The notes below the pieces were generated by a model that saw nothing but the letters and a program-made list of their open reading frames with translations, was not told where the DNA came from and did not search any database. The position numbers were made by a program, and so were the translations under genes. This document shows, piece after piece, positions 2,204 to 17,348 of a stretch of 64,000 nt of DNA. Source of the stretch: Alphaproteobacteria bacterium (lineage in GTDB: Bacteria; Pseudomonadota; Alphaproteobacteria; GM7ARS4; G965262615). The DNA is taken from contig OZ253545.1 in the NCBI GenBank assembly GCA_965262615.1, positions 1,115,113 to 1,179,112 on the forward strand. The letters run 5' to 3'. The stretch's first letter is position 1; the number at the start of each line of letters is the position of its first letter.

Positions 2204-2295
2204 GCACTGGACATACCATACTTGCCCCCCCTCCGTCCATGTTTTTCACAACACTGAGGCGATTAGGCGGCGACATTGACGAATTCCTGCAAGCA

Positions 2296-3495
2296 TCACT
2301 CACTGAGCAGCTGAAGTAAAGCTTCTTGGGCTGGAGCAAGTCCTTGCTCGGCAGCTTTTTGATACAATTCCATGGCTTTTTTCTTATTCTTTTCTAATCC
2401 CCCATAACCATCTTCATACATGAGACCAAGATTGAATTGTGCTTGGGCATACCCTTGATTGGCAGCTTGTTGCCACCAAAACACCGCTTTTTTTATATTC
2501 TCCTTCAATCCCCCCTCACCTTTGCCATACATCAGACCAAGAGAGGTTTGGGCTGAGGCAAATCCTTGCTCGGCAGCTTGTTGCCACCATTCCACCGCTT
2601 TTTTCTTATTCACCTTCACCCCCAGCCCGTTGTAATACATTATACCAAGATTGTTTTGGGCTTGGGTATACTCTTGTTGGGCAGATTTTTGATACAATTT
2701 CAACGCTTCTTCCATATCCCGCTTCAATCCCCCTTCGCCGTTTTGATACATCACACCAAGGTTGTTTTGGGCTGGAGCAAATCCTTGGTCGGCAGATTTT
2801 TGATACAATTCCAACGCTTTTTCATCATCTTGCGTCACCCCATAACCGTTGGAATACATCACACCAAGATTGTATTGAGCTTCGGCATGTTTTTGTTGGG
2901 CAGCTTTTTGATACCATTGCACCGCCTTTTCATAATCCTGCGTCACTCCATAACCGTTGGCATACATCACACCAAGATTGGATTGGGCTTCGGTATTCTC
3001 TTGCTCGGCAGCTTTTTGATACCAATACACCGCTTTTTCATAATCCTGCGTGACACCTATGCCATTTTCATACATCACACCAAGATTGTATTGAGCTTCG
3101 GCATGTTTTTGTTGGGCAGCTTTTTGATACCATTGCACCGCCTTTTCATCATCCTGTGTCACTCCCCAACCATTGTCATACATCACACCAAGATTGTTTT
3201 GGGAATCGGCATGACCTTGTTCAGCAGATTTTTGCCACCATTGCACCGCCTCTTCATCATCCTGCGTCACCCCATCACCGTTGAGATACATCCAACCAAG
3301 CTCTGCTTGAGATTCGGCATCCCCTTGTTTGGCAGATTGCAATATCTCATAGTGGGAGTCTGATAAGGCATCATTCGCCGCGCTCAAGGAAAAACATGTC
3401 ATGACAATGGCGAACAAAAACGCCGTGCGACTCACACGCCCCGCCGAGATATTTGCTTTATGCCAATTCATCCAATCACTATATCCCTCGTCCAT
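2296..3495 (-). CDS. Secreted Sel1-like repeat protein (signal peptide plus about 9 Sel1 repeats)
   Basis: Sel1 consensus repeats. N-terminus MDEGYSDWMNWHKANISAGRVSRTAFLFAIV; the true start is probably the internal ATG at 3471 (MNWHK), because the upstream codons coincide with a TTGCAA-N17-TATAGT promoter. Confidence 0.85.
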   Translation of the reverse strand: MDEGYSDWMNWHKANISAGRVSRTAFLFAIVMTCFSLSAANDALSDSHYEILQSAKQGDAESQAELGWMYLNGDGVTQDDEEAVQWWQKSAEQGHADSQNNLGVMYDNGWGVTQDDEKAVQWYQKAAQQKHAEAQYNLGVMYENGIGVTQDYEKAVYWYQKAAEQENTEAQSNLGVMYANGYGVTQDYEKAVQWYQKAAQQKHAEAQYNLGVMYSNGYGVTQDDEKALELYQKSADQGFAPAQNNLGVMYQNGEGGLKRDMEEALKLYQKSAQQEYTQAQNNLGIMYYNGLGVKVNKKKAVEWWQQAAEQGFASAQTSLGLMYGKGEGGLKENIKKAVFWWQQAANQGYAQAQFNLGLMYEDGYGGLEKNKKKAMELYQKAAEQGLAPAQEALLQLLSE

Positions 3496-3506
3496 GTTTT
3501 TGCAAC
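3472..3506 (-). promoter_or_regulatory. Sigma70-like promoter (TTGCAA-N17-TATAGT) ending 6 nt before the ATG at 3471; predicted leaderless transcript
   Basis: Read directly from the sequence. The same TTGCAA/TTGTGA-N16-17-TATAGT/TATAAT/TATGGT-N6-ATG arrangement recurs at 5676..5709, 7055..7088, 13078..13110 and 13675..13707. Confidence 0.5.
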
Positions 3507-3510
3507 ACTG

Positions 3511-4620
3511 TCATAATCTTTCTTTGATTTTATTCAAGGCTTCTTGAGCATCGCCATGACCTTGCTCGGCGGCTTGTTGCCACCATTCCATCGCTTTTTC
3601 CGTGTCTTGCGGGACACCCTCGCCAGTGAAATAAATGATGCCCAGATAGAACTGAGATTGGGTAAAACCTTGCTGGGCGGCTTTGGTAATCCATTGTGCC
3701 GCCTGCCGATCATTTGCTTCCACACCGTAGCCATCGTAATAAGCCACGCCCAGATTATGCTGAGCGAAAACAAAACCCTGTCCAGCCGCTTTTTTGAACC
3801 ATTTCACGGCTTGTGTTTGATCCCTCGTAATGCCATCACCATTGGCATACGCCATACCGAGATTATGCTGGGCGAGAACAAAACCCTGTCCAGCCGCTTT
3901 TTTATACCACCTGACGGCTTCTTTTTGATTCTGCGCGATGCCATCACCATTGGCATACGCCACAGCGAGATTGTGTCGGGCGAGAACAAAGCCTTTGTGG
4001 GCGGCTTTTGTGTACCATTTGACGGCTTCTTCTTGATCCTTCGTAATCCCATCACCGTTGGCATACGCCACGCCGAGATTGTATTGAGCAGCGCCAAGAT
4101 TTTGCTCCGCCGCTTTTGTGTACCACTTGACGGCTTGTGTTTGATCCTTCATAATCCCATAGCCATTGTGATAAGCCACACCCAGATTGAATTGGGCTTG
4201 GGCAAGACCTTGTTCAGCAGCTTTTTGAAACCATTTGCCAGCTTCGGTGTCATTCTGGCTCAAAAGACATTCCACACCGTATTGAAAATACCCGCGCGGC
4301 GAGCCGAAAAACAAACCCTCCACGAAGAAAAGCGATTTTTTAATGGAAGTTGCCATGTCATCATGTGACATCGGCGGCAATGATTGAATCATGGCGGGGG
4401 AAAACGCGGCAACGAGAAAGAGACAATTCAACAACAATCCCAAGACTTCTGGCAGTCTTCCCAGCCCATCCGTTGCCGCCATAAGGAGCAGAACAGGAAA
4501 ATTGCAACAAATAAGTCTTGCAAGAGCCTCCGACAAATCGCGAGGCAGTTGTTCTTTGATGAATTCTAATGTGATTTTGGTATCAGAAGCAATCATGCGC
4601 CGGACATACCACGACTGCAC
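3511..4620 (-). CDS. Sel1-like repeat protein with N-terminal membrane domain (paralog of 872..2203)
   Basis: Sel1 repeats plus the shared motif [23 protein letters not shown]. Likely start is MIASDTKITLEF (ATG at about 4596), preceded by the conserved sequence GGTATGTCCGGCGC-ATG. Confidence 0.85.
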   Translation of the reverse strand: MQSWYVRRMIASDTKITLEFIKEQLPRDLSEALARLICCNFPVLLLMAATDGLGRLPEVLGLLLNCLFLVAAFSPAMIQSLPPMSHDDMATSIKKSLFFVEGLFFGSPRGYFQYGVECLLSQNDTEAGKWFQKAAEQGLAQAQFNLGVAYHNGYGIMKDQTQAVKWYTKAAEQNLGAAQYNLGVAYANGDGITKDQEEAVKWYTKAAHKGFVLARHNLAVAYANGDGIAQNQKEAVRWYKKAAGQGFVLAQHNLGMAYANGDGITRDQTQAVKWFKKAAGQGFVFAQHNLGVAYYDGYGVEANDRQAAQWITKAAQQGFTQSQFYLGIIYFTGEGVPQDTEKAMEWWQQAAEQGHGDAQEALNKIKERL

Positions 4621-4711
4621 TTTTCAATCAATATTTTGACAACACCAAGAGGCGGTATTAGGTGGCGACATTGACAAATTTTTGCAGGCATCTTTGACTG
4701 CCCAATTGGAG

Positions 4712-5675
4712 TCATGATGATTTTTTAACTACACTCAAGGCTCTTCGAGCTGGGACATAACCTTGTTCATCAGCTTTTTCAAGCCACTTGACACCTTCTT
4801 TTTGATCCTGCGTCACACCCTCGCCTTTACCATAAGCCACACCTAGATTATATTGAGCTGGGGCATCACCTTGTTCGGCGGCTTTTCGCCACCACCGCAC
4901 CGCCTCCTCTTTATCCTTATCCACACCGTTGCCATTAAGATAAGCCAAGCCAAGATTGTATTGAGCTTTGGCATAATTTTGTTTGACAGCTTCTTTGTAC
5001 CATCGCACTGCTTTCTCTTCATCCTTACCCACACCATTGCCATTTTCATACATCACGCCAAGATTATATTGAGCTTGAACAATTCCTTGTTGGGCAGCTT
5101 CTTGCCACCACCGCACGGCTTCTGTTTGATTCTGCGTCACACCCTCGCCATTGAAATACATCACACCGAGATTATATTGTGCTTCGGCATGACCCTTCTG
5201 GGCTGCGCTTTTGAAGTGCTGCAACGCTTTTACCTTATTTGGCTTCATCACTATCACCACTGTAATACCTCATACCAAGCCTGAATGCTTCTTCGGCTTC
5301 GTATTTATTTTTCTTGTCTCGCATGAATAAAAGCTCGCCAAGAATTGGAATTCCGATGACTAAAACAATACTAATTGCAAAACCTGACAAAAGAACGAGC
5401 AGAACAACAAACCCCCAAAAAATGAAGGATGCATCCATATGTGCCACCAGCCAGTTTTCTTGCAAACTTGACAGAGCATCCGCCAATGCACTAATAGCTA
5501 GGGATGAAAAATAAACAATGGGAAGAAAGAATACCGCAAGCCAAAAAAAGTTATGCCAATACCTTGGCAGGTTCTTCATGAAGGCTGAAACTTCAGATTC
5601 TCTAAGGTCACCTATTACTTGATGCTCTGGACGCACAGAGGCTACAAAACCGCTAGTATTTTCATTCTCACCCAT
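4712..5675 (-). pseudogene. Sel1-like repeat gene split by a single-base frameshift (membrane N-terminal ORF 5235..5675 plus Sel1 C-terminal ORF 4712..5260)
   Basis: The two ORFs overlap by 26 nt in different frames. Removing one A from the homopolymer run in CCAAATAAGG near 5240 restores a continuous Sel1 repeat (GDSDEANKVKALQHFKSAAQKG). A perfect TTGCAA-N16-TATAAT promoter lies at 5682..5709. Confidence 0.6.
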
Positions 5676-5770
5676 CCTCCTATTATATCCCCGTCCATAT
5701 TTTTTGCAACACTTTGCGGGGATTCATCACAAGGGGTGGAGCTGGCGAGGGCGCAATTGATGCCTTGGCA

Positions 5771-7078
5771 TCACTCACTGTACAGTTGAAGTAAAGCCTC
5801 TCGGGCATCGGCATGACCTTGCTCAGCAGCTTTTTGCCACCATTTCACCACTTTTTCATAATTTCGCGCCACCCCCTCACCGTTGGCATACATCTCACCA
5901 AGATTGAATTGGGCTTCAGCATTCCCTTGTTTGGCAGCTTTTTGATACCACTGCACCGCTTTTTTCTGATCCTGCGTTACCCCCTCACCTTCGTCATACA
6001 TCATACCAAGATATAATTGTGCTAGGGCATAACCTTGTTTGGCAGCTTTTTGCCACCATTCTATCGCTTTTTCCATATTCTGCCTCAATCCCCCCTCACC
6101 ATCGGCATACATGACAGCAAGCATGAATTGGGCTTTGGCGACACCTTGTTGGGCAGCTTGTTGTAACCAGAACACCGCTTTTCCCTTATCCTGTGCCACC
6201 TCCTCACCGTTCACATACATGACACCAAGAGCTGTTTGAGCTAGGGCATCACCTTGTTGGGCAGCTTTTTGCCACCATTCTATCGCTTTTTCCTTATCCT
6301 GCCTCAATCCCCCCTGCCCTTTGCCGTACATGAGACCAAAATTATATTGGGCTTCAGCATTCCCTTGTTCAGCAGCTTTTTGCCACAATTCCACCGCTTT
6401 TTCATAATCTTGCGTCACTCCCTTACCGCCATGATACATCAAGCCAAGATTAAATTGAGCATCAGCATAATCTTGTTGGGCAGCTTTTGTGTACCACTTG
6501 ACCGCTTCTTTTTTATCCTGCGTCACACCATAGCCATTGGCATAAGCCACACCAAGATTATATTGAGCTGGAGCATCACCTTGCTCAGCTGCTTTTTGAT
6601 ACCATTGCACCGCTTTTTCATAATTTTGCGTCACCCCCTTACCGGACTCATACATGACACCAAGACCGAATTGGGCTTCGGCAATACCTTGCTCGGCAGC
6701 TTTTAGCCACCATTCCGCCGCTTTTTCATAATTCTGAGTCACCCCATAACCATTGGCATACATGACACCAAGAGAAAATTGGGCTTGAACAATATCTTGT
6801 TGGGCAGCTTTTTGATACCAGAACATCGCTTTTTCATAATCCTGCGTCACCCCCTCACCGTTGAAATACATAAAGCCAAGATTGTGTTGGGCTTCGGCAT
6901 CCCCTTGTTTGGCAGATTGCAATATCTCATATTGCTCATCTGATAACGCTACCGCCACTGAGCTCAAGGCAGGGAATGTAATAAAGACAGTGACAAGCAA
7001 GAACGCCGCGCGACTCACACGCCGCGCCGATATCTTTGTTTCGTTCCAATTCATCCAATCACTATACCCCTCGCCCAT
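5771..7078 (-). CDS. Secreted Sel1-like repeat protein (about 10 repeats)
   Basis: Sel1 consensus repeats and the MGEGYSDWMNWNETKISARRVSRAAFLL N-terminus. Probable true start at 7054 (MNWNE), downstream of the TTGCAA(7083-7088)-N16-TATAGT(7061-7066) promoter. Confidence 0.85.
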   Translation of the reverse strand: MGEGYSDWMNWNETKISARRVSRAAFLLVTVFITFPALSSVAVALSDEQYEILQSAKQGDAEAQHNLGFMYFNGEGVTQDYEKAMFWYQKAAQQDIVQAQFSLGVMYANGYGVTQNYEKAAEWWLKAAEQGIAEAQFGLGVMYESGKGVTQNYEKAVQWYQKAAEQGDAPAQYNLGVAYANGYGVTQDKKEAVKWYTKAAQQDYADAQFNLGLMYHGGKGVTQDYEKAVELWQKAAEQGNAEAQYNFGLMYGKGQGGLRQDKEKAIEWWQKAAQQGDALAQTALGVMYVNGEEVAQDKGKAVFWLQQAAQQGVAKAQFMLAVMYADGEGGLRQNMEKAIEWWQKAAKQGYALAQLYLGMMYDEGEGVTQDQKKAVQWYQKAAKQGNAEAQFNLGEMYANGEGVARNYEKVVKWWQKAAEQGHADAREALLQLYSE

Positions 7079-7116
7079 CTTTTTGCAACACTTAGCGACA
7101 CTGTGTCACCAATGGT

Positions 7117-7736
7117 GCATGAAACATTTGACCCTTTGTCTTTTATCTTCGTTTTTTCTATCGTCTGTGGCATTGGCGGAGTCCTCGTCGCCGTTTGATG
7201 CCATGGGGGTGCGTGATGTGATGGCATCGGCGCGGGCTGGCGACAAAGAGGCGCAACATGCCCTCGCCATGCGCTATTATCACGGACGCGGCATCAAGCA
7301 GAATCTGGAAAAGGCCTATGAGTGGCACACCAAAGCCGCCATGCAAGATCACAGCGAGTCGCTGAACGAATTGGGATGGATGCACCTCAACGGTGAGTTC
7401 GTGCCGCAAGACGAAGACATCGCCATCGCCTTTTATGAGCGTTCGGCGGCGTTGGGCAATCCTCATGGGTGTGCGCATCTGGCGGAGATTTTTGCCATGC
7501 GCGGCGACTTCATGAACGCCACCATGCACCTGATGATGGCCAGCGACCCCACCGCAAGCCGCTATGTCATGAGCATGGGACACGCCGACCCAGAACTCCT
7601 CAAAATGCAAATCATGGATGAACTCACCCCCGAGCAGCTCATCACCGCTCGCCACAACGCCATGACATGGCAGCATCAACGGCGCGACACCATGAACAAT
7701 CAATCGCCCCTGCCCTTTGCGGTGAGCTTTCAATAA
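7117..7736 (+). CDS. Divergent Sel1-like repeat lipoprotein/secreted protein
   Basis: Signal peptide MKHLTLCLLSSFFLSSVALA, then degenerate Sel1 repeats (DKEAQHALAMRYYHGRGIKQNLEKAYEWHTKAA...). Start chosen at the first ATG with a signal peptide; the ORF-track start at 6861 overlaps the converging Sel1 gene. Confidence 0.6.
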
Positions 7737-7875
7737 ATTATCGCTCATTCGCCCCGCTCCCCTTCACCGGGGGGCGAGGCGCGCGGCTTGTTTTGATGAT
7801 CGCTCACATGAATTGCCACACAGAGCGTGGCGCGCGAGGCATTGTTTTAATGATCACTTTTTGCTACAGTCCTTC

Positions 7876-9022
7876 TATGGATGGTCAGACACATGTCTCA
7901 CTGCGTCAAAAAATTGACCACATCCGCACGATCCTGTCGCAAGAATATCAAAGAAAACACAAAGTCCCCTGGATTATCGCCTATTCGGGCGGTAAAGACA
8001 GCACATTTCTTTTGCATCTTGTCATGGAGTGCCTGCACAATGTGCCTGAAGAAAAGCGGGTGCGTCCTGTTTATGTTGTGTCCAATGATACCCTTGTGGA
8101 AAGTCCGCTTGTGAGTGAGCATTTACACAAAAGCATGAAGAAAATCAAATCATCGGCAAAAAAGCTTAATCTGCCCATCACCGCCACAATCACAGAGCCA
8201 GCACATTCCGATTCCTTTTGGGTGCAAGTCATTGGCAAAGGATACCCAACGCCCAATCGTATGTTTCGCTGGTGCACCGACCGTCTTAAAATCAAGCCCT
8301 CAACGGAATTCATCAAAAAGCAAGTGAGCCAAAGCGGCAATGTGATTTTACTCATGGGGACACGCAAATCAGAAAGTGCCTCAAGAGCCGCATCCATCAA
8401 TCGCCACAAACGCAAAGGCAACAGCATTTACAGTGACCACAATTCGCTGGAGCATTGCAAGGTCTTGTCCCCCATCGTGGATTTTGAGGATGATGAACTA
8501 TGGACATTTCTTTTGCAATCCAAGCCCCCCTGGGGAGGCAGCTATCGCAATTTGATTACATTGTATCGCAATGCGCGCGGCGGCGAATGCCCCACCGTCT
8601 TGAGCAAAACCGAAGCCCCAGGGTGCGGTTCGGCATCGCCGCGTTTTGGCTGTTGGGTCTGCACCGTGGTGGAAAAGGATAGCAGTCTTGAAGGATTGGT
8701 GGATTCGGGCTTTGAGCAGTTTGAGGCATTGGTGGATTTTCGCTTATGGCTACTGGAAATAAGAAGTGACCCCACATATCGCCTCGCCATTGACCGCAGA
8801 GGCAAAATCCGCACGAGAAAAGACGGCACAATCATGCCAAGAGCCTTTACAATTAAGGCGCGTGAGAAAATTTTGCAAAAACTATTGGAACTGCAAGAAG
8901 AAATGGCGATGAAATTAATTACGCCCCAAGAGATTGAAACAATTCGCGAAATATGGCAAAAAGACAAAGTGATGTTGAACAAGTCACCACACAAAAACAC
9001 ACGCCCCGTGTGTGTCATCTAA
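7876..9022 (+). CDS. PAPS-reductase superfamily protein, DndC/SspD-like (PP-loop ATP pyrophosphatase with C-terminal cysteine cluster)
   Basis: PP-loop motif IAYSGGKDST, followed by a Cys-rich segment GGECPTV...PGCGS...FGCWVC typical of DndC-type DNA sulfur-modification proteins. AT-richer than surrounding genes. Start chosen at MDGQTHV (7876) to avoid overlap with the upstream gene. Confidence 0.6.
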
Positions 9023-9040
9023 TCAGTCGGAGTATTCCAA

Positions 9041-10825
9041 ATGACGACAGAAAATGACGACTTGACAATCAGAGAAATGCCTGTTGGGGAAATTCTCGGA
9101 GGAAAATTTCTCGTTCCAGAATATCAGCGCGGCTATCGTTGGAGTAGAGACGAGGTTATAGAACTTCTTGAAGACATTCAAGATGCCCTCAATGATGGCG
9201 ATGACTACTATTTCATTGGCTCTTTCAATTTGATTAACGATAATCCAAACAAACCTTTTGAGGTTGTTGATGGGCAACAAAGATTGACAACAATTTCATT
9301 AATCGCAAGAGAAGCGCGCTTTTTGTTGCAAAAAGAGACTTCTAATTTGGGAGAAGAAGGGGTGGTTCATCTTATGTCAGCCCTTCTTAAAATTTCAGAC
9401 GAGGTTGTTCACTTTGATCGAAAAAGTGAACGAGAAGGATTTGAAAAACTTATGAAAGGCGACGCTACGAGCCACGACCAAATGTCAGTTGCTTCGAAAG
9501 AAGTAAAAGAATTTATAAAAAGAAAAAAAGAAGAGACCTCTCATGTAGGAAATACCGATGAGCTTGTTAGGTATATGAATTACCTTCTCAACAATGTGAA
9601 GGTAGTTTTTATCGTTGTTAAAGATGAAAAGATTGCATACAAAATTTTTGAAGCTCTTAATCTTCGGGGCAAACCTCTTGGCACGATAGATTCAATAAGA
9701 ATTTTTGTGTTCCGAAATATCAACAGGGAAAAATTTGAGTACTGCTTCAAATTGTGGGAAGACTTGGAGAATACCATGAGAATGACCCACAAAAGAGTTG
9801 ATGACCTTATGACTCAAATGTTTAATACATTCTTTGAGTGTCATAGAGGCATTAGAATTGAGGAAAATCACTTGTTCTCTAAAGTGGAGAATTCCTTTAA
9901 GCAGGAAGCACAAGATGAAAAAGAAAAAGAAAAAGAAAGCCAGAAAATATATCTGGATTTTTTTGAGAAAATCGTATCTATAGATGGTGGTAGCAAGAAA
10001 AATTTTCCTAACTATTACTTGGCTTCTGTTAAGCATGACCATGACCTGTGGAAAAAATTGGATGTGCCGATTTTTTTCAGAGAAGCTTTGTGCGGAACTA
10101 AAATATGGGATGGAAATAAAATATGCAGAGCTCCCATTGCTGCTATGTTTCATGCGTTAAATATGCCAAAACCTCGCATTACAACAGAACAAGCTAACAA
10201 TATTATGCATGACATGTACAGCTTAATTTCTCGCCTTGAAGCGTTGGGAATTCTTCGCGGGCAAAATGTATCAAAATGCAATTCTCGGCTAGCTGCTTTT
10301 GCTAAAAAACTCATCTATACAGAAGAAAATTTTGAGACAATCGCTCAAGAACTTTTTCAAGGCATCCATGACCAAGTTGATGGGGTCATGTCTGATAAAG
10401 ATTTTAGAGTTGAAATGACGGCTAATAAAAAAGTCAGAAGAGACAAAGCAAAAAGATTATTGCGGGATATTGAATTTGCCCGTAACAAGCAACTTGCCAA
10501 TGTGGGTAAAGAAATTCACATTGAACACATTTTGCCTCAAAATCCAAATGAAAAAGATTGGAAAGATTTTTCAGTGGAAGATAGGGATTACCACACAAAT
10601 CGCATTGGTAATTTTGCTTTGTTATTGGATGTTGATAATCAAAGAATCGGCAATAAGCCTTTTGCTGATAAAGTGCTTGTATACGCCGAAAACACGATAA
10701 CAACAACGAATGAATTAGCCAAAAACACAGATTGGACAAAAGATGATATTGATGAACGCAGTAAGCGGCTGGCAAAAGAGATTGCTGGTGTATGGAATTT
10801 CCATTACTACAACCCCTCACCCTGA
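9041..10825 (+). CDS. DUF262 (ParB-like NTPase) plus DUF1524 (HNH/His-Me nuclease) protein, GmrSD/SspE-like modification-dependent restriction enzyme candidate
   Basis: N-terminal DUF262 signature (YQRGYRW...FIGSF...VVDGQQRLTT) and C-terminal DUF1524-like HxxH...N motif (IHIEHILPQNP...NRIGNFALL). Markedly AT-rich, with poly-A/T tracts. Confidence 0.65.
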   Translation: MTTENDDLTIREMPVGEILGGKFLVPEYQRGYRWSRDEVIELLEDIQDALNDGDDYYFIGSFNLINDNPNKPFEVVDGQQRLTTISLIAREARFLLQKETSNLGEEGVVHLMSALLKISDEVVHFDRKSEREGFEKLMKGDATSHDQMSVASKEVKEFIKRKKEETSHVGNTDELVRYMNYLLNNVKVVFIVVKDEKIAYKIFEALNLRGKPLGTIDSIRIFVFRNINREKFEYCFKLWEDLENTMRMTHKRVDDLMTQMFNTFFECHRGIRIEENHLFSKVENSFKQEAQDEKEKEKESQKIYLDFFEKIVSIDGGSKKNFPNYYLASVKHDHDLWKKLDVPIFFREALCGTKIWDGNKICRAPIAAMFHALNMPKPRITTEQANNIMHDMYSLISRLEALGILRGQNVSKCNSRLAAFAKKLIYTEENFETIAQELFQGIHDQVDGVMSDKDFRVEMTANKKVRRDKAKRLLRDIEFARNKQLANVGKEIHIEHILPQNPNEKDWKDFSVEDRDYHTNRIGNFALLLDVDNQRIGNKPFADKVLVYAENTITTTNELAKNTDWTKDDIDERSKRLAKEIAGVWNFHYYNPSP

Positions 10826-11190
10826 GGGTGATTCTAGCAAATCTAATAACGCTTGAATTTTTATTGGTTTTTTCATGAGATGGAGCGTCATGCCGCGAGG
10901 TGATTCCACCGAATTTCGTGATTCCATCGCCTCGCCGCTGAGCATAATCAGATGGGTGATGCCCAGCGCGCGCCACTCATCTGCTGGTGGGGTGCGTGCG
11001 GCGTGGGAGGCTGTCTGGCGGTCGTAAATGAGAGTCACTCGTTTGTGCGGCGGCGGTGCGGTGAGCTCCTTCTTTTGCTTGACCTCTATTTTTGCTATGA
11101 CTTGCTCTATGATGCGTTTGAGTTCCCGCAAGAACAATGCGTCACTGACATCCAGAATCACAAGGTGATGGCGACTTTTCATATTTTTCA
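10817..11190 (-). CDS. Possible single-domain response-regulator receiver (CheY-like) protein
   Basis: C-terminal ...GITHLIMLSGEAME...HLMKKPIKIQALLDLLE resembles the receiver-domain alpha4-beta5-alpha5 region. Its start overlaps the divergent L,D-transpeptidase start, so the call is weak. Confidence 0.3.
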
Positions 11191-11704
11191 CACCCCTCAC
11201 ACTCCTTTTCGCGCCCATGCGGGCATTGTCAGATGGCGGCACCATACCATCTCTTGCCTGCTGGGCAAAGCGGGCGTGACGCGCCACAAGAAAGAAGGCG
11301 ATGGCGCAACGCCCGTGGGCATCATGCGGGGACACGCATTGTTCTACCGCAGCGACCGCATCCCGCCGCCGCCGTGCCCCATCACCCCCCGACCCATCCG
11401 CCGCTCCATGCGCTACTGTGATGACCCCGCCTCCCCTCTTTACAACCGCCTGTTTTTCACCTCATCCCCGCCGTCATGTTCTCATGAGCGATTGTGGCGC
11501 AATGACGGCATCTACGACATCATCCTCATCCTCACCCACAATCGCCACCCCAAAGTCGCGGGACACGGCAGCGCAATCTTCATTCATCTAGCAGACAATG
11601 AAACCTCCCACACCCAAGGCTGCATAGCTTGTCACTATGACGATTTGTGCAATTTGTTGTCTCATGTCTCTCGCTCAAGTCGCTTTATCATCCATCCCTC
11701 ATGA
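11174..11704 (+). CDS. L,D-transpeptidase (YkuD/ErfK) domain protein
   Basis: GDGATPVG ... HGSAIFIHLADNETSHTQGCIACHYDDL matches the YkuD catalytic His / S-x-GC-I-R/A motif. The exact start is uncertain. Confidence 0.55.
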   Translation, partial: TFHIFHTPHTPFRAHAGIVRWRHHTISCLLGKAGVTRHKKEGDGATPVGIMRGHALFYRSDRIPPPPCPITPRPIRRSMRYCDDPASPLYNRLFFTSSPPSCSHERLWRNDGIYDIILILTHNRHPKVAGHGSAIFIHLADNETSHTQGCIACHYDDLCNLLSHVSRSSRFIIHPS

Positions 11705-11766
11705 TGCGTCTTTCCCCGCACCCCGTCCAATTGCAACAAAGCGATGGAATATGGTAGGATAAGGGT

Positions 11767-13053
11767 ATGTCTGACAAAGCACCCAAAGCCATTGACAAAA
11801 CTAGTGAACCTGTGCCTGAGCCCACAAAAGACACTACCAGCAGTGGGTTGGATTATGTGCATCCTGATGCCGTTAACAAATTTATGAACCTGACGTTGGA
11901 CAAAATACCTGAGCAATTGCTCGAGCTTTTAGGTGGAACTGCTTTTTTATTAGCTCTTTTTTATTTTTCTGCCATCATTATTAAAAAATGGTTGGAAGCT
12001 TTAACACTTTATTCCAAAGATGTTACTGCACATTCGGCTATGAAGCGTTCCCTCTATGCCTCCCTCTATGCCTTTATCGTTATATTTGCTACAACAGCTA
12101 TTTATTCAGCGATTGTAACTATCGAAGATTTATTGCCCGAAGAAGGGCAAGATGAATACGAGCGTGGTATAAGGTATTATTACGGGATTGGCGTACCAAA
12201 AGATTACAAGAAAGCAGCTGAATGGTATCAAGAAGCTGCCGACCAAGGACTCGCCCAAGCCCAAAATAATCTTGGTGTGAGGTATGAGCGCGGCGAGGGT
12301 GTACCACAGGATTATGAAAAAGCGGTGGAATGGTATCAAGAGGCTGCCGACCAAGGACTCGCCCAAGCCCAAAACAATCTTGGTGTGATGTATGCCAACG
12401 GTTATGGGGTGACACAGGATTATAAAAAAGCGGTGGAATGGTATCAAAAAGCTGCCAAGCAAGGAAATGCCCAAGCCCAAAACAATCTTGGTGATATGTA
12501 TTACAGTGGTGATGGTGTGCCACAGGATTATAAAAAAGCGGTGAAATTCTATCAAGAAGCTGCCGACCAAGGACTCGCCCAAGCCCAAAGCAATCTTGGT
12601 TGGATGTATTACAACGGTTATGGTGTGACGCAGGATAGAAAAGAAGCTGTGGAATGGTGGCAAAAAGCTGCCGAGCAAGGATTCGCCAAAGCCCAGTTTA
12701 ATCTTGGTGCGGCGTATATCAAAGGTGATGATGTTAAGCAGGATTATGAAAAAGCGTTTGAATGGTATCAAAAAGCTGCCGAGCAAGGTTATGTCCAAGC
12801 CCAAACCAGTTTTGGTTTCATGTATGCCATGGGGCAGGGGGTGACGCAGGATTATAGAAAAGCGAAGGAGTGGTGGGAAAAAGCTGCCGACCAAGGGGAT
12901 GCCCAAGCCCAATTCAATCTTGGTTGGATGTATGAACACGGTGACGGGGTGACGAAAGATATAAAAAAAGCGATTGAATGGTATGAAAAAGCTGCCAAGC
13001 GAGGTCTTGAGGTAGCTATAGATGCTCTCAAAAGATTAAATAAAAACAAGTGA
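11767..13053 (+). CDS. Sel1-like repeat protein with N-terminal TM segments
   Basis: About 8 Sel1 repeats and a C-terminal ...AIDALKRLNKNK tail shared with paralogs. Upstream TTGCAA-N17-TAGGAT. Confidence 0.85.
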   Translation: MSDKAPKAIDKTSEPVPEPTKDTTSSGLDYVHPDAVNKFMNLTLDKIPEQLLELLGGTAFLLALFYFSAIIIKKWLEALTLYSKDVTAHSAMKRSLYASLYAFIVIFATTAIYSAIVTIEDLLPEEGQDEYERGIRYYYGIGVPKDYKKAAEWYQEAADQGLAQAQNNLGVRYERGEGVPQDYEKAVEWYQEAADQGLAQAQNNLGVMYANGYGVTQDYKKAVEWYQKAAKQGNAQAQNNLGDMYYSGDGVPQDYKKAVKFYQEAADQGLAQAQSNLGWMYYNGYGVTQDRKEAVEWWQKAAEQGFAKAQFNLGAAYIKGDDVKQDYEKAFEWYQKAAEQGYVQAQTSFGFMYAMGQGVTQDYRKAKEWWEKAADQGDAQAQFNLGWMYEHGDGVTKDIKKAIEWYEKAAKRGLEVAIDALKRLNKNK

Positions 13054-13077
13054 TACCATCGCCATCTCTTCCGTGTT

Positions 13078-13650
13078 GTGAAGAATGTGGCGATGGGATA
13101 TGGTGAGGGGATGGGTTGGAATAAAGCAAATGTATTGGCGAGGCGTGGTGGTGGCACGGCGTTTTTGTTTGCCATTGTCGTCATTGCTCATACGGGCTGG
13201 ATGGCGAGCGTGGCTCATGCTGATGCAACGGAAGAAGTGCAACAATGGATAGAATTCGCGAAGGGAGGCAGTGCCTTTTACCAAAACGAGGTTGGTTCTG
13301 CGTATGCCGATGGTCGGGGTGTCACGAAGGATTATGAAGAAGCGGTGTTCTGGTATCGCAGAGCCGCCGAACAAGGAAATGCCCTCGCCCAAGCCAATCT
13401 TGGGGTGATGTATAGGGATGGGATGGGTGTCACGCAGGATGATGAGGAAGCGGTGGAATGGTGGAAAAAAGCCGCCGAGCAAGAGAATGCCATAGCTCAA
13501 TTCAATCTTGGGGTGATGTATGGCAAGGGGATAGGCGTGGCACAGAGTGATGAAAAAGCCGTCTATTGGCTCACAAAAGCCGCCGAACAAGGCGATGAAG
13601 ATGCAACAGAAGTTCTCAAAACATTAGAAGAGTTAGAAAACAACAAGTGA
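13078..13650 (+). CDS. Secreted Sel1-like repeat protein (4 repeats)
   Basis: Signal peptide ...IAHTGWMASVAHA. Probable start at 13111 (MGWNK), after TTGTGA-N17-TATGGT-N6. The 3' 250 bp is about 95% identical to 37385..37630. Confidence 0.85.
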   Translation: MKNVAMGYGEGMGWNKANVLARRGGGTAFLFAIVVIAHTGWMASVAHADATEEVQQWIEFAKGGSAFYQNEVGSAYADGRGVTKDYEEAVFWYRRAAEQGNALAQANLGVMYRDGMGVTQDDEEAVEWWKKAAEQENAIAQFNLGVMYGKGIGVAQSDEKAVYWLTKAAEQGDEDATEVLKTLEELENNK

Positions 13651-13674
13651 TACTATCCCCATCTCTTCCGTGTT

Positions 13675-14565
13675 GTGAAGAATGTGGCGATGGGATATGG
13701 TGGGGGCATGAATTGGAATAAAGCAAATGTATTGGCGAGGCGTGGTGGTGGCATGGCTTTTTTGTTTGTCATTGTCGTCACATCTTTTTCCTTGAGTGCG
13801 GTGGCGGAGGATGACTTATCACAATTGGAAATTCTGGCAGAACAGGGGAATCCCTACGCCCAAAACGATCTTGGTGTCATGTATGAGGGCGGTGAGAGGG
13901 TGACGCAGGATTATGAAAAAGCGGTGTTTTGGTATCAACGCGCCGCTGAGCAGGGGTATGATGTCGCCCAATCCAATCTTGGCAATATGTATGACAGAGG
14001 CGATGGGGTGGCGCAGGATTATGAAGAGGCGGCTGAGTGGTATCAAAAAGCTGCTGAACAAGGCTATGCCCAAGCCCAATACAATCTTGGTGTGATGTAT
14101 GCTGAAGGTGAAGGGGTGATGCGAGATTATGAAAAGGTGGTGGAATGGTGGCAAAAAGCTGCCGACCAAGGTTTTGCCGATGCCCAATACAATCTTGGCT
14201 GGCTCTATTACTACGGCGAGGGAGTGACGCAGGATTATCAAAAAGCGGCTGAGTGGTATAGGCAAGCTGCTGGGCAAAATCATCACATTGCTCAGGCTCG
14301 GCTGGGTGTCATGGTTGCCAAGGGTTATGGGGTGAGGCAGGATGATGAAAAAGCGATGGAATGGTATCAAAAAGCGGAGGGACAAATCAAAAAGGATGCT
14401 GAGCGGGGCGATGACTATGCTCAATACACTCTTGGCTGGCTTTATGCTCAAGGTGGCGGAGCCAATCCCAGCATGCAACAGGCGATAAAATGGCTACGCA
14501 AAGCCGCAGAGCAAGGGAGTTCATTTGCTCACGATGAGCTCAAAAGATTAGAAAAAAACAACTAA
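13675..14565 (+). CDS. Secreted Sel1-like repeat protein
   Basis: Sel1 repeats. Probable start at 13708 (MNWNK), after the same promoter arrangement. Confidence 0.85.
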   Translation: MKNVAMGYGGGMNWNKANVLARRGGGMAFLFVIVVTSFSLSAVAEDDLSQLEILAEQGNPYAQNDLGVMYEGGERVTQDYEKAVFWYQRAAEQGYDVAQSNLGNMYDRGDGVAQDYEEAAEWYQKAAEQGYAQAQYNLGVMYAEGEGVMRDYEKVVEWWQKAADQGFADAQYNLGWLYYYGEGVTQDYQKAAEWYRQAAGQNHHIAQARLGVMVAKGYGVRQDDEKAMEWYQKAEGQIKKDAERGDDYAQYTLGWLYAQGGGANPSMQQAIKWLRKAAEQGSSFAHDELKRLEKNN

Positions 14566-15306: not shown

Positions 15307-16536
15307 ATGAGCGACCAAGAAACAAAAACAGAGCTTCAACAGAATATCTTTTCCGTCACGCAAACAATTCCTAAAGAGTGGCAAAAGCCTACGGTGATAG
15401 GTATTTTGTTGCTCACTTTTTATTATTTTTCAACCACTATTATTAAGGATTGGCTTCGCCTTGTCATTATTTATGATTACGACTACCTACAGGATGCTTT
15501 AGATGCACTTTTTCATTTTTTTATTGTAGCATCTGTTTTATTTGCACTATGGCTAGTGGTGCAAATTGCCAAGCTATTACTGGAAGAAACTCAAGATGAA
15601 GCAAAAAAAGCTGCTGAGAAAGGAATACCTGAAGGTCAATACAGTCTTGGTTTGAAGTACTACTTTGGCAATGATGTGCCACAAGATTACGAGAAAGCGG
15701 TGGAATGGTGGCAAAAAGCTGCCCAACAAGGGATTGTCGAAGCCCAATACAATCTTGGTGTGATGTATGAGCGCGGTATGGGGGTGACGCAAAATTATGA
15801 AAAAGCGGTGGAATGGTATGAAAAAGCTGCCCAACAAGGGCTTGCCAAAGCCCAATACAATCTTGGTGTGATGTATGAGTTCAGTAAGGGAGTGGTGCAG
15901 AATTATGAAAAAGCGGTGCAATGGTATCAACAAGCTGCCCAACAAGGCGATGCCGATGCCCAATTCAATCTTGGTGGAATGTATGACAGAGGTTATGGGG
16001 TGGTGCAGGATTATGAAAAAGCGGTGGAATGGTATGAAAAAGCTGCCCAACAAGGGCTTGCCAAAGCCCAATACAATCTTGGTGGAATGTATAACAGAGG
16101 TGATGGGGTGACGCAGGATTACGAAAAAGCGGTGCAATGGTTTCAAAAAGCTGCCGAACAAGGTCTTGCAGAAGCTCAATACAATCTTGGTGGAATGTAT
16201 AACAGAGGTAATGGGGTGATGCAGAATTATGAAAAAGCGGTGGAATGGTGGCAAAAAGCTGCCCAACAAGGGATTGTCGAAGCCCAATCCAATCTTGGTA
16301 CGATGTATGATTTGGGTAGAGGAGTAAAGAAGAGTAAAGAAAAAGCTTTGGAATGGTATCAAAAAGCTGCCCAACAAGGTAATGCCCCAGCCCAATTCAA
16401 TCTTGGTTTAATGTATGCCAACGCTGATGGGGTGACGCAGGATTTGGAAAAAGCGAAGGAATGGATTAAAAAAGCTGCCGACCAAGGGCTTGAGGTAGCT
16501 ATAGATGCTCTCAAGGAATTAGAAAAAAAGAAGTGA
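15307..16536 (+). CDS. Sel1-like repeat protein with N-terminal TM segments
   Basis: About 9 Sel1 repeats. Upstream TTGCAA-N18-TAGGGT. C-terminal AIDALKELEKKK. Confidence 0.85.
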   Translation: MSDQETKTELQQNIFSVTQTIPKEWQKPTVIGILLLTFYYFSTTIIKDWLRLVIIYDYDYLQDALDALFHFFIVASVLFALWLVVQIAKLLLEETQDEAKKAAEKGIPEGQYSLGLKYYFGNDVPQDYEKAVEWWQKAAQQGIVEAQYNLGVMYERGMGVTQNYEKAVEWYEKAAQQGLAKAQYNLGVMYEFSKGVVQNYEKAVQWYQQAAQQGDADAQFNLGGMYDRGYGVVQDYEKAVEWYEKAAQQGLAKAQYNLGGMYNRGDGVTQDYEKAVQWFQKAAEQGLAEAQYNLGGMYNRGNGVMQNYEKAVEWWQKAAQQGIVEAQSNLGTMYDLGRGVKKSKEKALEWYQKAAQQGNAPAQFNLGLMYANADGVTQDLEKAKEWIKKAADQGLEVAIDALKELEKKK

Positions 16537-16604
16537 CACAGCCCTTGTCTTTTCACGAACGCCGTTCAGTTGCAACGCCTCATGAGCTGTGGTAGGGTGG
16601 CAAT

Positions 16605-17348
16605 GTGACAGATATTATCTCATCCCTCAAAGATATATTCCAAGAGTGGCACACGCTTATAGTGTTCCTTGCTGTTGCTTATTTTTTACCCAATATTATT
16701 AATAAATGGTCAGCTTTTGGGAAAAAAGATACAGACGCAACTAGAAAAATTGCCGAGAACGGAGAGCCCGACGGTCAAGACAATCTTATTTTTGTGCCAC
16801 AGGATGACGAGCAAACGGTGGAGTGGTGTCAAGAAGCTGCCGACCAAGGGATTGCCGAAGCCCAATACAATCTTGGTGAGATGTATCGCAGAGGTTATGG
16901 AGTAACGCAGAATTATGAAAAAATGGTGGAATGGTGGCAAAAAGCTGCCGACCAAGGATTTGCCGAAGCTCAATACAATCTTGGTGTGGCTTACGAAAAT
17001 GGGGTTGGTGTAAAAAAGGACTATAAAAAGGCGGTGCAATGGTATCAAAAAGCCGCGATGCAAGGTCATGCCAATACCCAAAACAATCTTGGTGGGATGT
17101 ATTCCAACGGTTATGGGGTAACGCAGAATATGGAAAAAGCGGTGGAATGGTGGCAAAAAGCTGCCAAACAAGAAAATGCCTCAGCCCAATACAATCTTGG
17201 CTTGATGTATGCCAACGGTGATGGTGTGACGCAGGATTATGAAAAAGCGAAGGAATGGTTGCAAAAAGCTGCACTGCAGGGGCATGATGATGCAGGGAAA
17301 ACTATTTTTAAATTAGAGGTATTGGAAGAATTAGCAAAAAAGAAGTGA
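16605..17348 (+). CDS. Sel1-like repeat protein
   Basis: About 5 Sel1 repeats with an N-terminal hydrophobic segment. Upstream TTGCAA-N17-TAGGGT. Confidence 0.8.
   Translation: MTDIISSLKDIFQEWHTLIVFLAVAYFLPNIINKWSAFGKKDTDATRKIAENGEPDGQDNLIFVPQDDEQTVEWCQEAADQGIAEAQYNLGEMYRRGYGVTQNYEKMVEWWQKAADQGFAEAQYNLGVAYENGVGVKKDYKKAVQWYQKAAMQGHANTQNNLGGMYSNGYGVTQNMEKAVEWWQKAAKQENASAQYNLGLMYANGDGVTQDYEKAKEWLQKAALQGHDDAGKTIFKLEVLEELAKKK

What the first reader, a model, noticed from the sequence alone, without database searches (positions are those of the whole stretch)
7740..10830. Low-GC two-gene island: DndC/PAPS-reductase-like protein plus DUF262-DUF1524 nuclease, a candidate minimal DNA-modification-dependent defence module
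Two co-oriented genes separated by 18 bp are inserted between a Sel1 gene and an L,D-transpeptidase gene. Both are visibly more AT-rich than their neighbours, which suggests horizontal acquisition. Gene 1 has the PP-loop SGGKDS and a Cys cluster (C..GC..FGCWVC) like DndC/SspD, the ATP-pyrophosphatase/Fe-S subunits of DNA phosphorothioation systems. Gene 2 combines DUF262 (the ParB-like NTPase found in DndB, SspE and GmrSD) with a C-terminal DUF1524 His-Me nuclease, the architecture of modification-dependent restriction enzymes such as SspE and GmrSD. In described Dnd and Ssp systems the DndC/SspD homologue works with DndA/D/E or SspA/B/C, none of which is present here. A stand-alone DndC-like plus SspE-like pair has not been described as far as I know. 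It could be a reduced or novel sulfur/base-modification sensing system, or the DndC-like enzyme could be a regulator or self-protection factor for the nuclease.
Basis: partly seen in the sequence, partly recalled or inferred. Interest (0 to 1): 0.82.

Follow-up and report, generated by a model that had tools for sequence, protein, structure and literature searches.

The report
DndC plus DndI-like nuclease module
Two adjacent genes, a DNA-sulfur-modification enzyme (DndC) and a DndI-like nuclease, belong to a widespread and apparently undescribed gene module that lacks the DndD/DndE partners thought essential for this chemistry, so it is a testable candidate for a new minimal phosphorothioate-type defence system.

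Summary
The two genes are real. Gene 1 (7877-9022) is a short DndC that scores above NCBI's DndC cut-off. Gene 2 (9041-10825) is an intact GmrSD-family ParB-NTPase/His-Me nuclease whose closest solved relative is DndI, not SspE. Only gene 2 is AT-rich, and that is a family-wide trait, so it does not show recent acquisition.

Short DndC proteins from 87 loci split into two clean clades. One is always followed by DndD/DndE. The other, which includes the window, is followed directly by a GmrSD-type nuclease in 23 of 25 assessable species loci and by another HNH nuclease in the other two. No DndD/E lies within 10 kb in this clade. dndA often sits upstream, and GIY-YIG+DndB or an SNF2 helicase often sit downstream.

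DndC and its nuclease co-diverge (Mantel r=0.91). In a reciprocal search, all six close relatives of the nuclease had DndC upstream. In sister strains the dndC 3' end plus gene 2 is replaced by a 46%-identical allele or by a HIT+CBASS cassette.

Most likely this is a DndDE-independent, phosphorothioate-type modification-restriction pair. The function is inferred, not shown. I found no paper that describes it as a system. I rate it a new variant of a known kind.

The parts
7774..7858 (+). Intergenic region upstream of dndC with two direct copies of a ~30-nt motif (GCG[A/T]GGCGCGCG..TTGTTTT[G/A]ATGATC[G/A]CT). Candidate promoter or operator. Copy number varies between strains.
   Evidence: the window and L085 have two copies; L001 and L086 have one (33-nt indel). 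The simple sigma-70 scan found no promoter consensus here. The regulatory role is inferred only.
7877..9022 (+). dndC, short form (381 aa; alternative start ATG 7850 gives 390 aa). PP-loop ATP pyrophosphatase / [4Fe-4S]-type sulfurtransferase of the DNA phosphorothioation family.
   Evidence: TIGR03183 357 bits (cut-off 290), covering profile positions 8-366 of 447. PADLOC DndC 2e-118. SGGKDS, FRWCTDR, GGECP, APxCG and RFGCWxC are invariant in 40 homologues. AlphaFold pLDDT 83, and the fold matches PAPS reductase, TtuA, NcsA and LarE. dN/dS is 0.14-0.18 against sister strains.
9029..9032 (+). GGAG ribosome-binding site for gene 2, 8 nt before ATG 9041, inside the 18-nt spacer.
   Evidence: Read directly from the sequence. 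No terminator lies between the genes on the + strand.
9041..10825 (+). DndI-like GmrSD-family protein (594 aa). It has an N-terminal ParB-like NTPase (DUF262, DGQQR at 77-81), a helical middle region and a C-terminal His-Me/HNH nuclease (DUF1524; E495-H496, N524, N533).
   Evidence: Pfam GmrSD_N 2.6e-32 and GmrSD_C 4e-21. PADLOC HEC-06 1.4e-65, Orf5 9e-54, SspE 5e-29. AlphaFold pLDDT 87. Best PDB fold match is DndI 9JFL at TM 0.62. The family profile against PDB gives DndI 2.2e-70 over the full length. Catalytic motifs are invariant in 23 DndC-partner homologues.
8700..10832 (.). Strain-variable cassette: the 3' end of dndC plus the whole of gene 2. Sister contigs from one metagenome carry either a 46%-identical allele or a HIT + CD-NTase + Cap15 (CBASS) block in its place.
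   Evidence: blastn breakpoints are 8896 and 10832 against L085. Identity to L086 decays from about 8700 and recovers after about 10900.

Best explanation
The pair is the minimal form of a distinct, DndD/DndE-less branch of the Dnd family.

Proposed mechanism:
- DndC is the modification enzyme. It takes sulfur from a cysteine desulfurase. That is a dedicated DndA in many relatives and presumably the housekeeping IscS/SufS here. It uses ATP through its PP-loop to put sulfur into DNA, most likely as a backbone phosphorothioate.
- The DndI-like protein encoded immediately downstream is its dedicated partner. Its ParB-type NTPase domain scans DNA and reads the mark. Its His-Me nuclease nicks DNA that lacks the mark, as shown for DndI.
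- Because this DndC has the same architecture as DndD-dependent DndC yet has no DndD/E, the partner probably also supplies the DNA-targeting (and perhaps nicking) function that DndD/E provide elsewhere. The two proteins would then act as one complex.

What is shown: gene identities, intact motifs, obligate adjacency, co-divergence, absence of DndD/E nearby, and strain-level cassette variation.

What is inferred: phosphorothioation itself, complex formation, the direction of discrimination (DndI-like rather than SspE-like), and anti-phage function.
For: 1. Gene 1 is a bona fide DndC with all catalytic motifs and is under purifying selection.
2. Gene 2 is an intact DndI-family protein. DndI with IscS-DndBCDE is an experimentally shown PT-sensing defence (PMC11662687).
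3. In an NJ tree of 87 short DndC proteins, the 32 from GmrSD/HNH contexts form one clade and the 55 from DndD/E contexts form the other, with no mixing.
4. In the first clade no DndD or DndE homologue lies within about 10 kb. The same queries find DndD/E in essentially every locus of the second clade. A family-free clustering of neighbours finds only DndA (17 loci), GIY-YIG (13), DndB (15), SNF2 (8) and ParB-HTH (8).
5. At least 13 pairs have a 4-bp stop/start overlap, which suggests translational coupling.
6. Pairwise identities of DndC and partner correlate strongly (Mantel r=0.91, 0 of 2000 permutations reach this). The partners are monophyletic against generic GmrSD proteins, and those generic proteins stand alone without DndC.
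7. Reciprocal test: a profile of the partner nucleases, searched in an independent metagenome collection, found 6 full-length relatives, and all 6 had DndC directly upstream.
8. There is an asymmetry typical of modification/restriction pairs. DndC occurs without the nuclease (L085), but no partner-type nuclease was seen without DndC.
9. Precedent that a PT writer need not have DndD/E: tdpC alone suffices for PT synthesis, as stated in PMC12914056 citing An et al. 2025.
Against: - No experiment links this clade to phosphorothioation.
- All characterised DndC enzymes need DndD and DndE. Rakesh et al. 2024 (PMC10853773) regard DndD/E as the obligate core.
- Whole genomes could not be searched, so DndD/E encoded elsewhere cannot be excluded.
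- Clade-specific differences in DndC are minimal, with only 4 discriminating columns. Nothing in DndC itself explains autonomy.
- In the window's own population the slot downstream of dndC also holds an unrelated CBASS cassette (L085). The gene 2 allele has also been replaced by a 46%-identical one while DndC stayed 97% identical. That pattern would also fit a generic defence hot spot.
- The best PADLOC hit of gene 2 is HEC-06, a candidate stand-alone system.
- Co-divergence of adjacent genes is expected to some degree from joint transfer alone.
Confidence: 0.5

Rival explanations
1. The DndI-like protein is part of the modification machinery only. Its NTPase plus nickase would replace the DndD ATPase and DndE nicked-DNA binder (or SspC plus SspB), so that DndC + GmrSD is a two-protein phosphorothioate writer. 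Restriction, if any, would then be done by other linked genes (GIY-YIG, SNF2 helicase) or would be absent in the minimal two-gene form.
For: GmrSD and DndD/E are mutually exclusive and occupy the same position directly after dndC. The DndC of the two clades is nearly identical in architecture, so something must replace DndD/E. Additional nucleases or helicases follow the pair in most relatives. DndI and SspE are nickases with NTPase activity (PMC11662687).
Against: Characterised members of this protein family (DndI, SspE, GmrSD, BrxU) are all restriction effectors. The gene's low GC, fast evolution and allele replacement look like a restriction or specificity component under arms-race pressure. 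In L021 and L022 the position is taken by unrelated HNH_4 nucleases that lack a ParB NTPase.
Confidence: 0.2
2. Coincidental neighbours. Gene 2 is an autonomous Type IV (HEC-06/GmrSD-type) modification-dependent restriction enzyme sitting in a variable defence slot. The adjacent dndC is an orphan or relic with an unrelated or lost function.
For: HEC-06 is the best PADLOC hit. Generic GmrSD homologues are stand-alone genes. A sister strain has HIT+CBASS in the same slot. Gene 2 has sharply lower GC than dndC.
Against: The same adjacency is seen in at least 30 loci across more than 10 phyla, with clade-level fidelity, co-divergence (r=0.91), 4-bp overlaps and a 6-of-6 reciprocal association. dndC is under purifying selection with all motifs intact. 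The low GC of the nuclease is universal in the family.
Confidence: 0.1
3. An ordinary Dnd system split across the genome. DndD/DndE (and DndA/IscS) are encoded elsewhere, and gene 2 is simply the DndI-type restriction partner, as in Salmonella IscS-DndBCDE-DndI.
For: Only 64 kb of this genome, and about 20 kb of each related genome, were visible. dndA is known to be dispensable or unlinked (PMC10853773, PMC11662687). DndI normally works with DndBCDE.
Against: No DndD/E is present in the window, in the 10 kb upstream seen in L001 and L086, or near any of the roughly 30 clade members. dndC and dndD are adjacent in all 52 loci of the other clade where the downstream sequence is visible and a partner was found. 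The clean split of the DndC tree by partner argues for a stable, different partnership.
Confidence: 0.12
4. The DndC-like enzyme makes a different product. This could be thiolation or another ATP-dependent modification of a DNA base or of RNA. The nuclease would read that mark or target invaders carrying it.
For: PP-loop/[4Fe-4S] relatives (TtuA, NcsA, LarE) thiolate bases and cofactors. No DndD/E is present.
Against: The sequence is about 50% identical to DndC proteins that sit in complete dndA-C-D-E clusters, and only 4 columns discriminate the clades. It scores above the DndC equivalog cut-off.
Confidence: 0.08

Closest known systems
IscS-DndBCDE-DndI phosphorothioation-sensing defence (Salmonella enterica Cerro 87; PMC11662687, PDB 9JFL)
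   Same: It has a DndC-family sulfurtransferase plus a DUF262-DUF1524 protein of about 595 aa. Gene 2's family profile matches DndI over its full length (E 2e-70), and the model superposes at TM 0.62. The DGQQR and HNH motifs and the Tyr equivalent to the PT-sensing Y25 (Y28 here) are present.
   Different: There is no DndD or DndE here, and the window has no DndB. The nuclease gene sits directly after dndC and co-evolves with it, whereas dndI sits in the dndFGHI operon. Sequence identity to DndI is only about 19%. In most relatives outside the window's own subclade the Y25-equivalent residue is His.
SspABCD-SspE
   Same: It pairs a PAPS-reductase-type writer with a DUF262-DUF1524 NTPase/nickase reader.
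   Different: Gene 1 is DndC-type, not SspD-type (PADLOC 2e-118 against 6e-11). There is no SspB nickase or SspC ATPase. SspE is about 770 aa and a weaker match than DndI.
Canonical DndABCDE modification module
   Same: The DndC has the same motifs and is about 50% identical to DndC proteins in dndA-C-D-E clusters. dndA and DndB accompany the module in many relatives.
   Different: [quoted passage not shown] The DndC is the short form, about 380 aa, lacking the last ~80 positions of the TIGR03183 profile.
TdpABC (single-enzyme PT writer TdpC)
   Same: It provides a precedent that PT synthesis can work without DndD/E-type partners, in a compact writer-plus-restriction layout (as stated in PMC12914056).
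   Different: No sequence or structural comparison with TdpC was possible, because it was not retrieved from PDB searches. The restriction partners (TdpAB) are unrelated to GmrSD.
GmrSD / BrxU / PADLOC HEC-06 stand-alone Type IV restriction enzymes
   Same: Same two-domain architecture. HEC-06 is the best PADLOC model for gene 2.
   Different: Those act alone on modified phage DNA. This subfamily is monophyletic and was always found next to DndC.

Membership tests
DndC (NCBIfam TIGR03183) | Whole-protein HMM score above the curated cut-off | tested here: met
   357.4 bits against a cut-off of 290.4. PADLOC DndC 2.2e-118.
DndC (NCBIfam TIGR03183) | PP-loop SGGKDS and conserved cysteines (FRWC, GGEC, APxC, RFGCWxC) for ATP pyrophosphatase / [4Fe-4S] function | tested here: met
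   All are present in gene 1 and invariant in 40 homologues. Cluster binding itself cannot be tested here.
DndC (NCBIfam TIGR03183) | Full-length coverage of the family profile | tested here: not met
   The match covers profile positions 8-366 of 447. The protein ends 16 residues later. This short form is shared by thousands of database proteins of about 380-400 aa, so it is not a truncation artefact.
Canonical Dnd modification system (DndABCDE) | [quoted passage not shown] | tested here: not met
   phmmer with DndD and DndE found none in the 64-kb window or in the ~10-kb flanks of about 30 clade members. The same queries hit every DndD-type locus. The rest of the genome could not be tested.
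Canonical Dnd modification system (DndABCDE) | Cysteine desulfurase DndA (or IscS in trans) | tested here: inconclusive
   None is present in the window. dndA lies directly next to the module in 17 of 31 related loci. A housekeeping IscS/SufS elsewhere cannot be checked.
Canonical Dnd modification system (DndABCDE) | Phosphorothioate present in genomic DNA | not testable with these tools
   This needs LC-MS/MS or iodine-cleavage sequencing.
Ssp system (SspABCD-SspE) | SspD-type PAPS reductase with SspB (DUF4007) and SspC ATPase | tested here: not met
   Gene 1 scores SspD 5.6e-11 against DndC 2e-118. The immediate neighbours are Sel1 and YkuD genes, and no conserved third family of this kind occurs in relatives.
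GmrSD family (DUF262+DUF1524) | N-terminal ParB-like NTPase with QR and DGQQR motifs, and C-terminal His-Me nuclease with EHxxP and Asn residues | tested here: met
   Pfam GmrSD_N 113 bits and GmrSD_C 76 bits. Q29 R30 D77-R81 H496 P499 N524 N533 are invariant.
GmrSD family (DUF262+DUF1524) | Modification-dependent cleavage as a stand-alone enzyme | not testable with these tools
   Context argues against a stand-alone role, because the gene is always next to DndC.
DndI | Full-length homology and fold similarity to DndI (9JFL) | tested here: met
   Profile E 2.2e-70 over residues 2-595 of DndI. Foldseek TM 0.62, the best PDB hit. By single-sequence phmmer the match is only 3.5e-9, so it is a distant member.
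DndI | Works with DndBCDE; gene linked to dndFGH | tested here: not met
   No dndB, dndD, dndE, dndF, dndG or dndH lies near the pair.

The most novel reading that the evidence does not exclude
A further, DndD/E-independent route to DNA phosphorothioation. In this reading a DndI-like ParB-NTPase/His-Me nickase both guides DndC to DNA and restricts unmarked DNA. The result would be a single two-protein writer-reader-effector complex, comparable in logic to Type IIG/ISP restriction-modification enzymes. It would be widespread in uncultured and symbiont bacteria, and its specificity would be swappable by exchanging the nuclease allele together with the DndC tail.
Probability: 0.3. Interest if true: 0.8.

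Novelty: new variant of a known kind. Interest (0 to 1): 0.66.

Why it matters
Current models treat the DndD ATPase and DndE as the indispensable DNA-scanning core of Dnd-type phosphorothioation. Surveys that define PT systems require dndCD or a P-loop NTPase next to dndC, so this module is filtered out or written off as an assembly gap.

A conserved DndC clade that never has DndD/E but always has a dedicated HNH-superfamily nuclease suggests one of two things. Either DndC can be targeted to DNA in another way, or it does something else. Both are directly testable with a 3-kb, two-gene construct.

If confirmed, it would add a very compact PT (or sulfur) modification-restriction system. It would revise estimates of how widespread PT epigenetics is, especially in sponge-symbiont and other uncultured lineages. 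It would also give a simpler system for working out how DndC chemistry is coupled to DNA recognition.

Tried and rejected
- **CysH/CysD sulfate assimilation.** Rejected. The DndC equivalog score is above cut-off, Pfam PAPS_reduct gives only 49 bits, and no cys genes are nearby.
- **Gene 1 as a truncated pseudogene of a 500-aa DndC.** Rejected. The ~380-aa form is a huge family, including members in complete dndA-C-D-E clusters, and dN/dS is about 0.15.
- **Low GC as evidence of a recently acquired two-gene island.** Rejected.
- **Recent exchange of gene 2 between the window and L001.** I first read the dN/dS table this way. The sliding identity plot shows instead that the two contigs are 99-100% identical throughout, except for a divergent patch at 7700-8000 (promoter repeat and dndC 5' end). 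I withdrew that reading.
- **First blastn of 22 kb against sister contigs.** Unusable because of Sel1-repeat cross-hits. I repeated it on 7000-12000.
- **PDB searches for a solved DndC or TdpC.** Neither sequence nor fold searches found one, only generic PP-loop enzymes.
- **Viral contigs.** 18 DndC loci, none with the GmrSD partner.
- **Promoter/terminator consensus scan.** Nothing above shuffled expectation.
- **The TdpC paper.** Not held in the library, so TdpC's domain make-up could not be compared.
- **Exact-sequence lookup of gene 2.** Not on record.
- **Literature searches (10 of 10 used).** No paper describes the DndC-GmrSD module as a system. There are only two passing mentions. PMC6790972 notes dndA, a dndB-like gene with DUF262/DUF1524, and dndC in sponge Thaumarchaeota. 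PMC12914056 lists DUF262 neighbourhoods of dndC among candidate PT systems.


Full report
**What is there**

The + strand carries two adjacent ORFs, 7667..9022 and 9041..10825. Homology to DndC begins at residue ~78 of the first ORF, and the 98%-identical database relative is called from the ATG equivalent to 7877. Gene 1 is therefore most likely 7877..9022, 381 aa. Eighteen nucleotides with a GGAG (9029-9032) separate it from gene 2, which is 594 aa.

Upstream is a Sel1-repeat gene. Downstream are a small unannotatable antisense ORF and a YkuD-domain ORF. The wider context is housekeeping genes (prfB, thiE, leuS) interspersed with many Sel1-repeat genes. There is no integrase or transposase.

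The LeuRS is at most 55% identical to any named protein; the named hits are Alphaproteobacteria, including Rhodospirillales and Stellaceae. The host is therefore a deep-branching uncultured alphaproteobacterium.

**Gene identities**

Gene 1 hits Pfam PAPS_reduct and exceeds the curated cut-off of the DndC equivalog TIGR03183 (357 against 290 bits). It covers only profile positions 8-366 of 447. PADLOC gives DndC 2e-118 against SspD 6e-11 and BrxP 7e-14. The PP-loop SGGKDS and the cysteines in FRWC, GGEC, APGC and RFGCWVC are invariant across 40 homologues. The AlphaFold model (pLDDT 83) has the PP-loop ATP-pyrophosphatase fold of PAPS reductase and the [4Fe-4S] thiolases TtuA and NcsA. The ~380-aa form is a very large family, not a truncation.

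Gene 2 has GmrSD_N and GmrSD_C. Its best PADLOC models are HEC-06 (1e-65), then Orf5 (9e-54), then SspE (5e-29). Its model (pLDDT 87) matches DndI (9JFL) best, at TM 0.62, ahead of SspE and BrxU. A profile of its family matches DndI over the full length at E 2e-70, against 1e-38 to 1e-43 for SspE-type chains. The NTPase motif DGQQR and the His-Me residues E495/H496, N524 and N533 are intact.

**Composition**

The window averages 0.504 GC. Gene 1 is 0.476, which is unremarkable. Gene 2 is 0.370, the minimum of the whole window. In all 28 DndC-GmrSD pairs examined, the nuclease gene has lower GC than dndC, by 9 points on average. The AT-richness is therefore a property of this gene family and not evidence of a recent two-gene insertion.

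**Comparative genomics**

A scan of one genome per GTDB species returned 80 loci with short DndC. With the metagenome loci and the window this makes 87 sequences. I classified the neighbours with phmmer, using gene 2 and the DndA/D/E proteins of a canonical Brevundimonas-type cluster (L004) as queries.

An NJ tree of the DndC proteins splits cleanly into two clades:
- 55 sequences are followed by a ~61-aa ORF, DndD and a DndE-domain protein.
- 32 sequences, including the window, are followed directly by a GmrSD-type protein.

Among the 26 species-level loci of the second clade:
- 23 have the GmrSD partner, split into two ORFs in two of them.
- 2 have a different HNH_4 nuclease in that position (L021; and L022, where it is fused to a methyltransferase).
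- 1 ends at a contig edge.

No DndD or DndE homologue occurs within about 10 kb in any of these loci, nor in the 64-kb window. An annotation-free clustering of all flanking ORFs found only these recurrent families:
- DndA: 17 loci, usually directly upstream.
- A GIY-YIG protein of ~112 aa: 13 loci.
- A DndB (PF14072): 15 loci.
- An SNF2 helicase: 8 loci.
- A ParB-HTH protein: 8 loci.

The window, L001, L086, L087, L002 and L010 carry only the core pair.

At least 13 pairs have a 4-bp stop/start overlap. The taxa span Alpha- and Gammaproteobacteria, Acidobacteriota, Chloroflexota, Gemmatimonadota, Nitrospirota, Nitrospinota, Thermodesulfobacteriota, Latescibacterota and Binatia. Many MAG names point to sponge symbionts.

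**Is the adjacency functional?**

- Pairwise identities of DndC and of the partner correlate at r=0.91, and none of 2000 permutations reach this.
- The partners form one group separate from 45 generic GmrSD homologues.
- Two of those generic proteins were checked and are stand-alone genes with no DndC.
- In the reciprocal direction, a profile of 20 partner nucleases searched in an independent metagenome collection returned six full-length relatives (37-62% identity). All six have DndC directly upstream. Four have DndA and three have GIY-YIG+DndB. The remaining weak hits are generic GmrSD proteins without DndC.

The DndC proteins of the two clades differ at only four consistently discriminating columns and share all motifs. 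The chemistry is therefore probably the same, and whatever DndD/E contribute must come from elsewhere. The obvious candidate is the partner.

**Strain-level variation at the window locus**

Four contigs from related strains share the locus; three come from one metagenome.
- L001 is 99-100% identical across 7200-10800. The exception is a patch at 7700-8000 that includes a 33-nt indel removing one of two copies of a ~30-nt repeat upstream of dndC.
- L086 is 99-100% identical up to about 8600. Identity then decays through the dndC 3' end, stays at about 40-65% across all of gene 2 (46% at the protein level, synonymous sites saturated), and returns to 95-100% after about 10900. DndC remains 97% identical.
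- L085 is 96% identical up to 8896. It then carries a diverged dndC tail followed by a HIT-domain protein, a CD-NTase and Cap15 (CBASS). It rejoins the window sequence at 10832, just after the gene 2 stop.

The exchangeable unit is therefore 'dndC tail plus downstream effector'. dndC itself is conserved and under purifying selection, with dN/dS 0.14-0.18.

**Interpretation**

The simplest reading is a modification-restriction pair. DndC writes a sulfur mark, most likely a backbone phosphorothioate. The DndI-like NTPase/nickase discriminates marked from unmarked DNA, as shown for DndI with IscS-DndBCDE (PMC11662687).

Two things go beyond known systems:
- The complete and consistent absence of DndD/E, which Rakesh et al. 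2024 (PMC10853773) regard as the obligate core.
- The position and co-evolution of the nuclease gene directly behind dndC.

The report that tdpC alone suffices for PT synthesis (stated in PMC12914056) makes a DndD/E-free writer plausible. The near-identity of DndC between the two clades suggests instead that the partner's ParB-type NTPase provides the DNA scanning. I cannot distinguish a reader/restriction role from a writer-accessory role, nor DndI-like from SspE-like logic. The asymmetry that DndC occurs without the nuclease, but never the reverse, fits a toxic nuclease that needs the mark.

**Prior knowledge**

Within the searchable library I found no paper that defines this module.
- Moeller et al. 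2019 (PMC6790972) noted genes resembling dndA, dndC and a 'dndB-like' gene with DUF262/DUF1524 in sponge Thaumarchaeota.
- The BREX type 4 study (PMC12914056) listed DUF262 neighbourhoods of dndC among candidate PT systems, but it required a P-loop NTPase neighbour.
- PADLOC would label gene 2 HEC-06 and gene 1 DndC separately.

**Limits**

- The trees are neighbour-joining without support values.
- The DndD/E searches used single-sequence queries, although these detected every locus of the other clade.
- The 80 species loci are the best-scoring of at least 596, so they are not a random sample.
- Nothing here measures DNA modification.

Noticed in passing
L085:4054-6365 (equivalent to window 8897-10831): In a sister strain the slot behind dndC holds a 242-aa HIT-domain protein (PADLOC ThsC-like HIT, 8e-11), a CD-NTase and a Cap15 effector (a CBASS system) instead of the nuclease. 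The left recombination breakpoint lies inside the dndC 3' end. I could not tell whether the HIT protein belongs with DndC or with CBASS.
   Followed up: partly
window 7774-7858: A ~30-nt GC-rich motif ending in TTGTTTTRATGATC is present in two copies upstream of dndC in the window and L085, but in one copy (33-nt indel) in L001 and L086. It could be an operator or promoter element with copy-number variation.
   Followed up: partly
window 22055-23326 (- strand): A 423-aa fusion of an N6/N4 DNA methyltransferase domain with a C-terminal HNH endonuclease lies about 11 kb from the pair. It is another candidate single-polypeptide restriction-modification element.
   Followed up: no
window 872-7736, 11767-14565, 15307-17348, 20464-22020: There are at least ten Sel1-repeat genes in 22 kb, many with signal-peptide-like N-termini, scattered among housekeeping genes. 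LeuRS is at most 55% identical to any named protein. Together these suggest a host-associated, deep-branching alphaproteobacterium.
   Followed up: partly
window 10817-11182 (- strand): A 121-aa ORF with no Pfam hit overlaps the stop codon of gene 2 by 9 nt and the probable YkuD start (ATG 11168). Gene callers on related contigs call this strand (L001 12941-13609, L086 11824-12186), not the YkuD ORF. The true coding strand is uncertain.
   Followed up: no
L004:11143-11328 and the equivalent position in about 20 DndD-type loci (e.g. L007, L042, L056): A conserved 61-66-aa ORF sits between short dndC and dndD. In most of these loci the DndE-like domain is part of a ~510-aa protein. I wondered whether the small ORF corresponds to the C-terminal part missing from short DndC, but did not test this.
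   Followed up: no
L087:2985-4776 (- strand): Directly downstream of a DndC-GmrSD pair, a second GmrSD is encoded convergently as separate GmrSD_N (433 aa) and GmrSD_C (167 aa) genes.
   Followed up: no
L006:11121-12886 and L009:11128-12919: In two complete MAG chromosomes the partner nuclease is split into two ORFs while dndC, GIY-YIG and DndB are intact. This could be inactivation of the nuclease or a sequencing frameshift.
   Followed up: no
gene 2 residue Y28 (window 9122-9124): The residue aligned with the PT-sensing Y25 of DndI is Tyr in the window subclade (3 sequences), His in 19 of the 23 DndC-partner nucleases (PxHQR instead of PxYQR) and Arg in one.
   Followed up: partly
gene 1 (window 7877-9022): The PADLOC model PDLC03333, named 'MTase_II', matches this DndC at 2.9e-74 over most of its length. 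That model appears to contain or represent a DndC-like domain rather than a methyltransferase.
   Followed up: no
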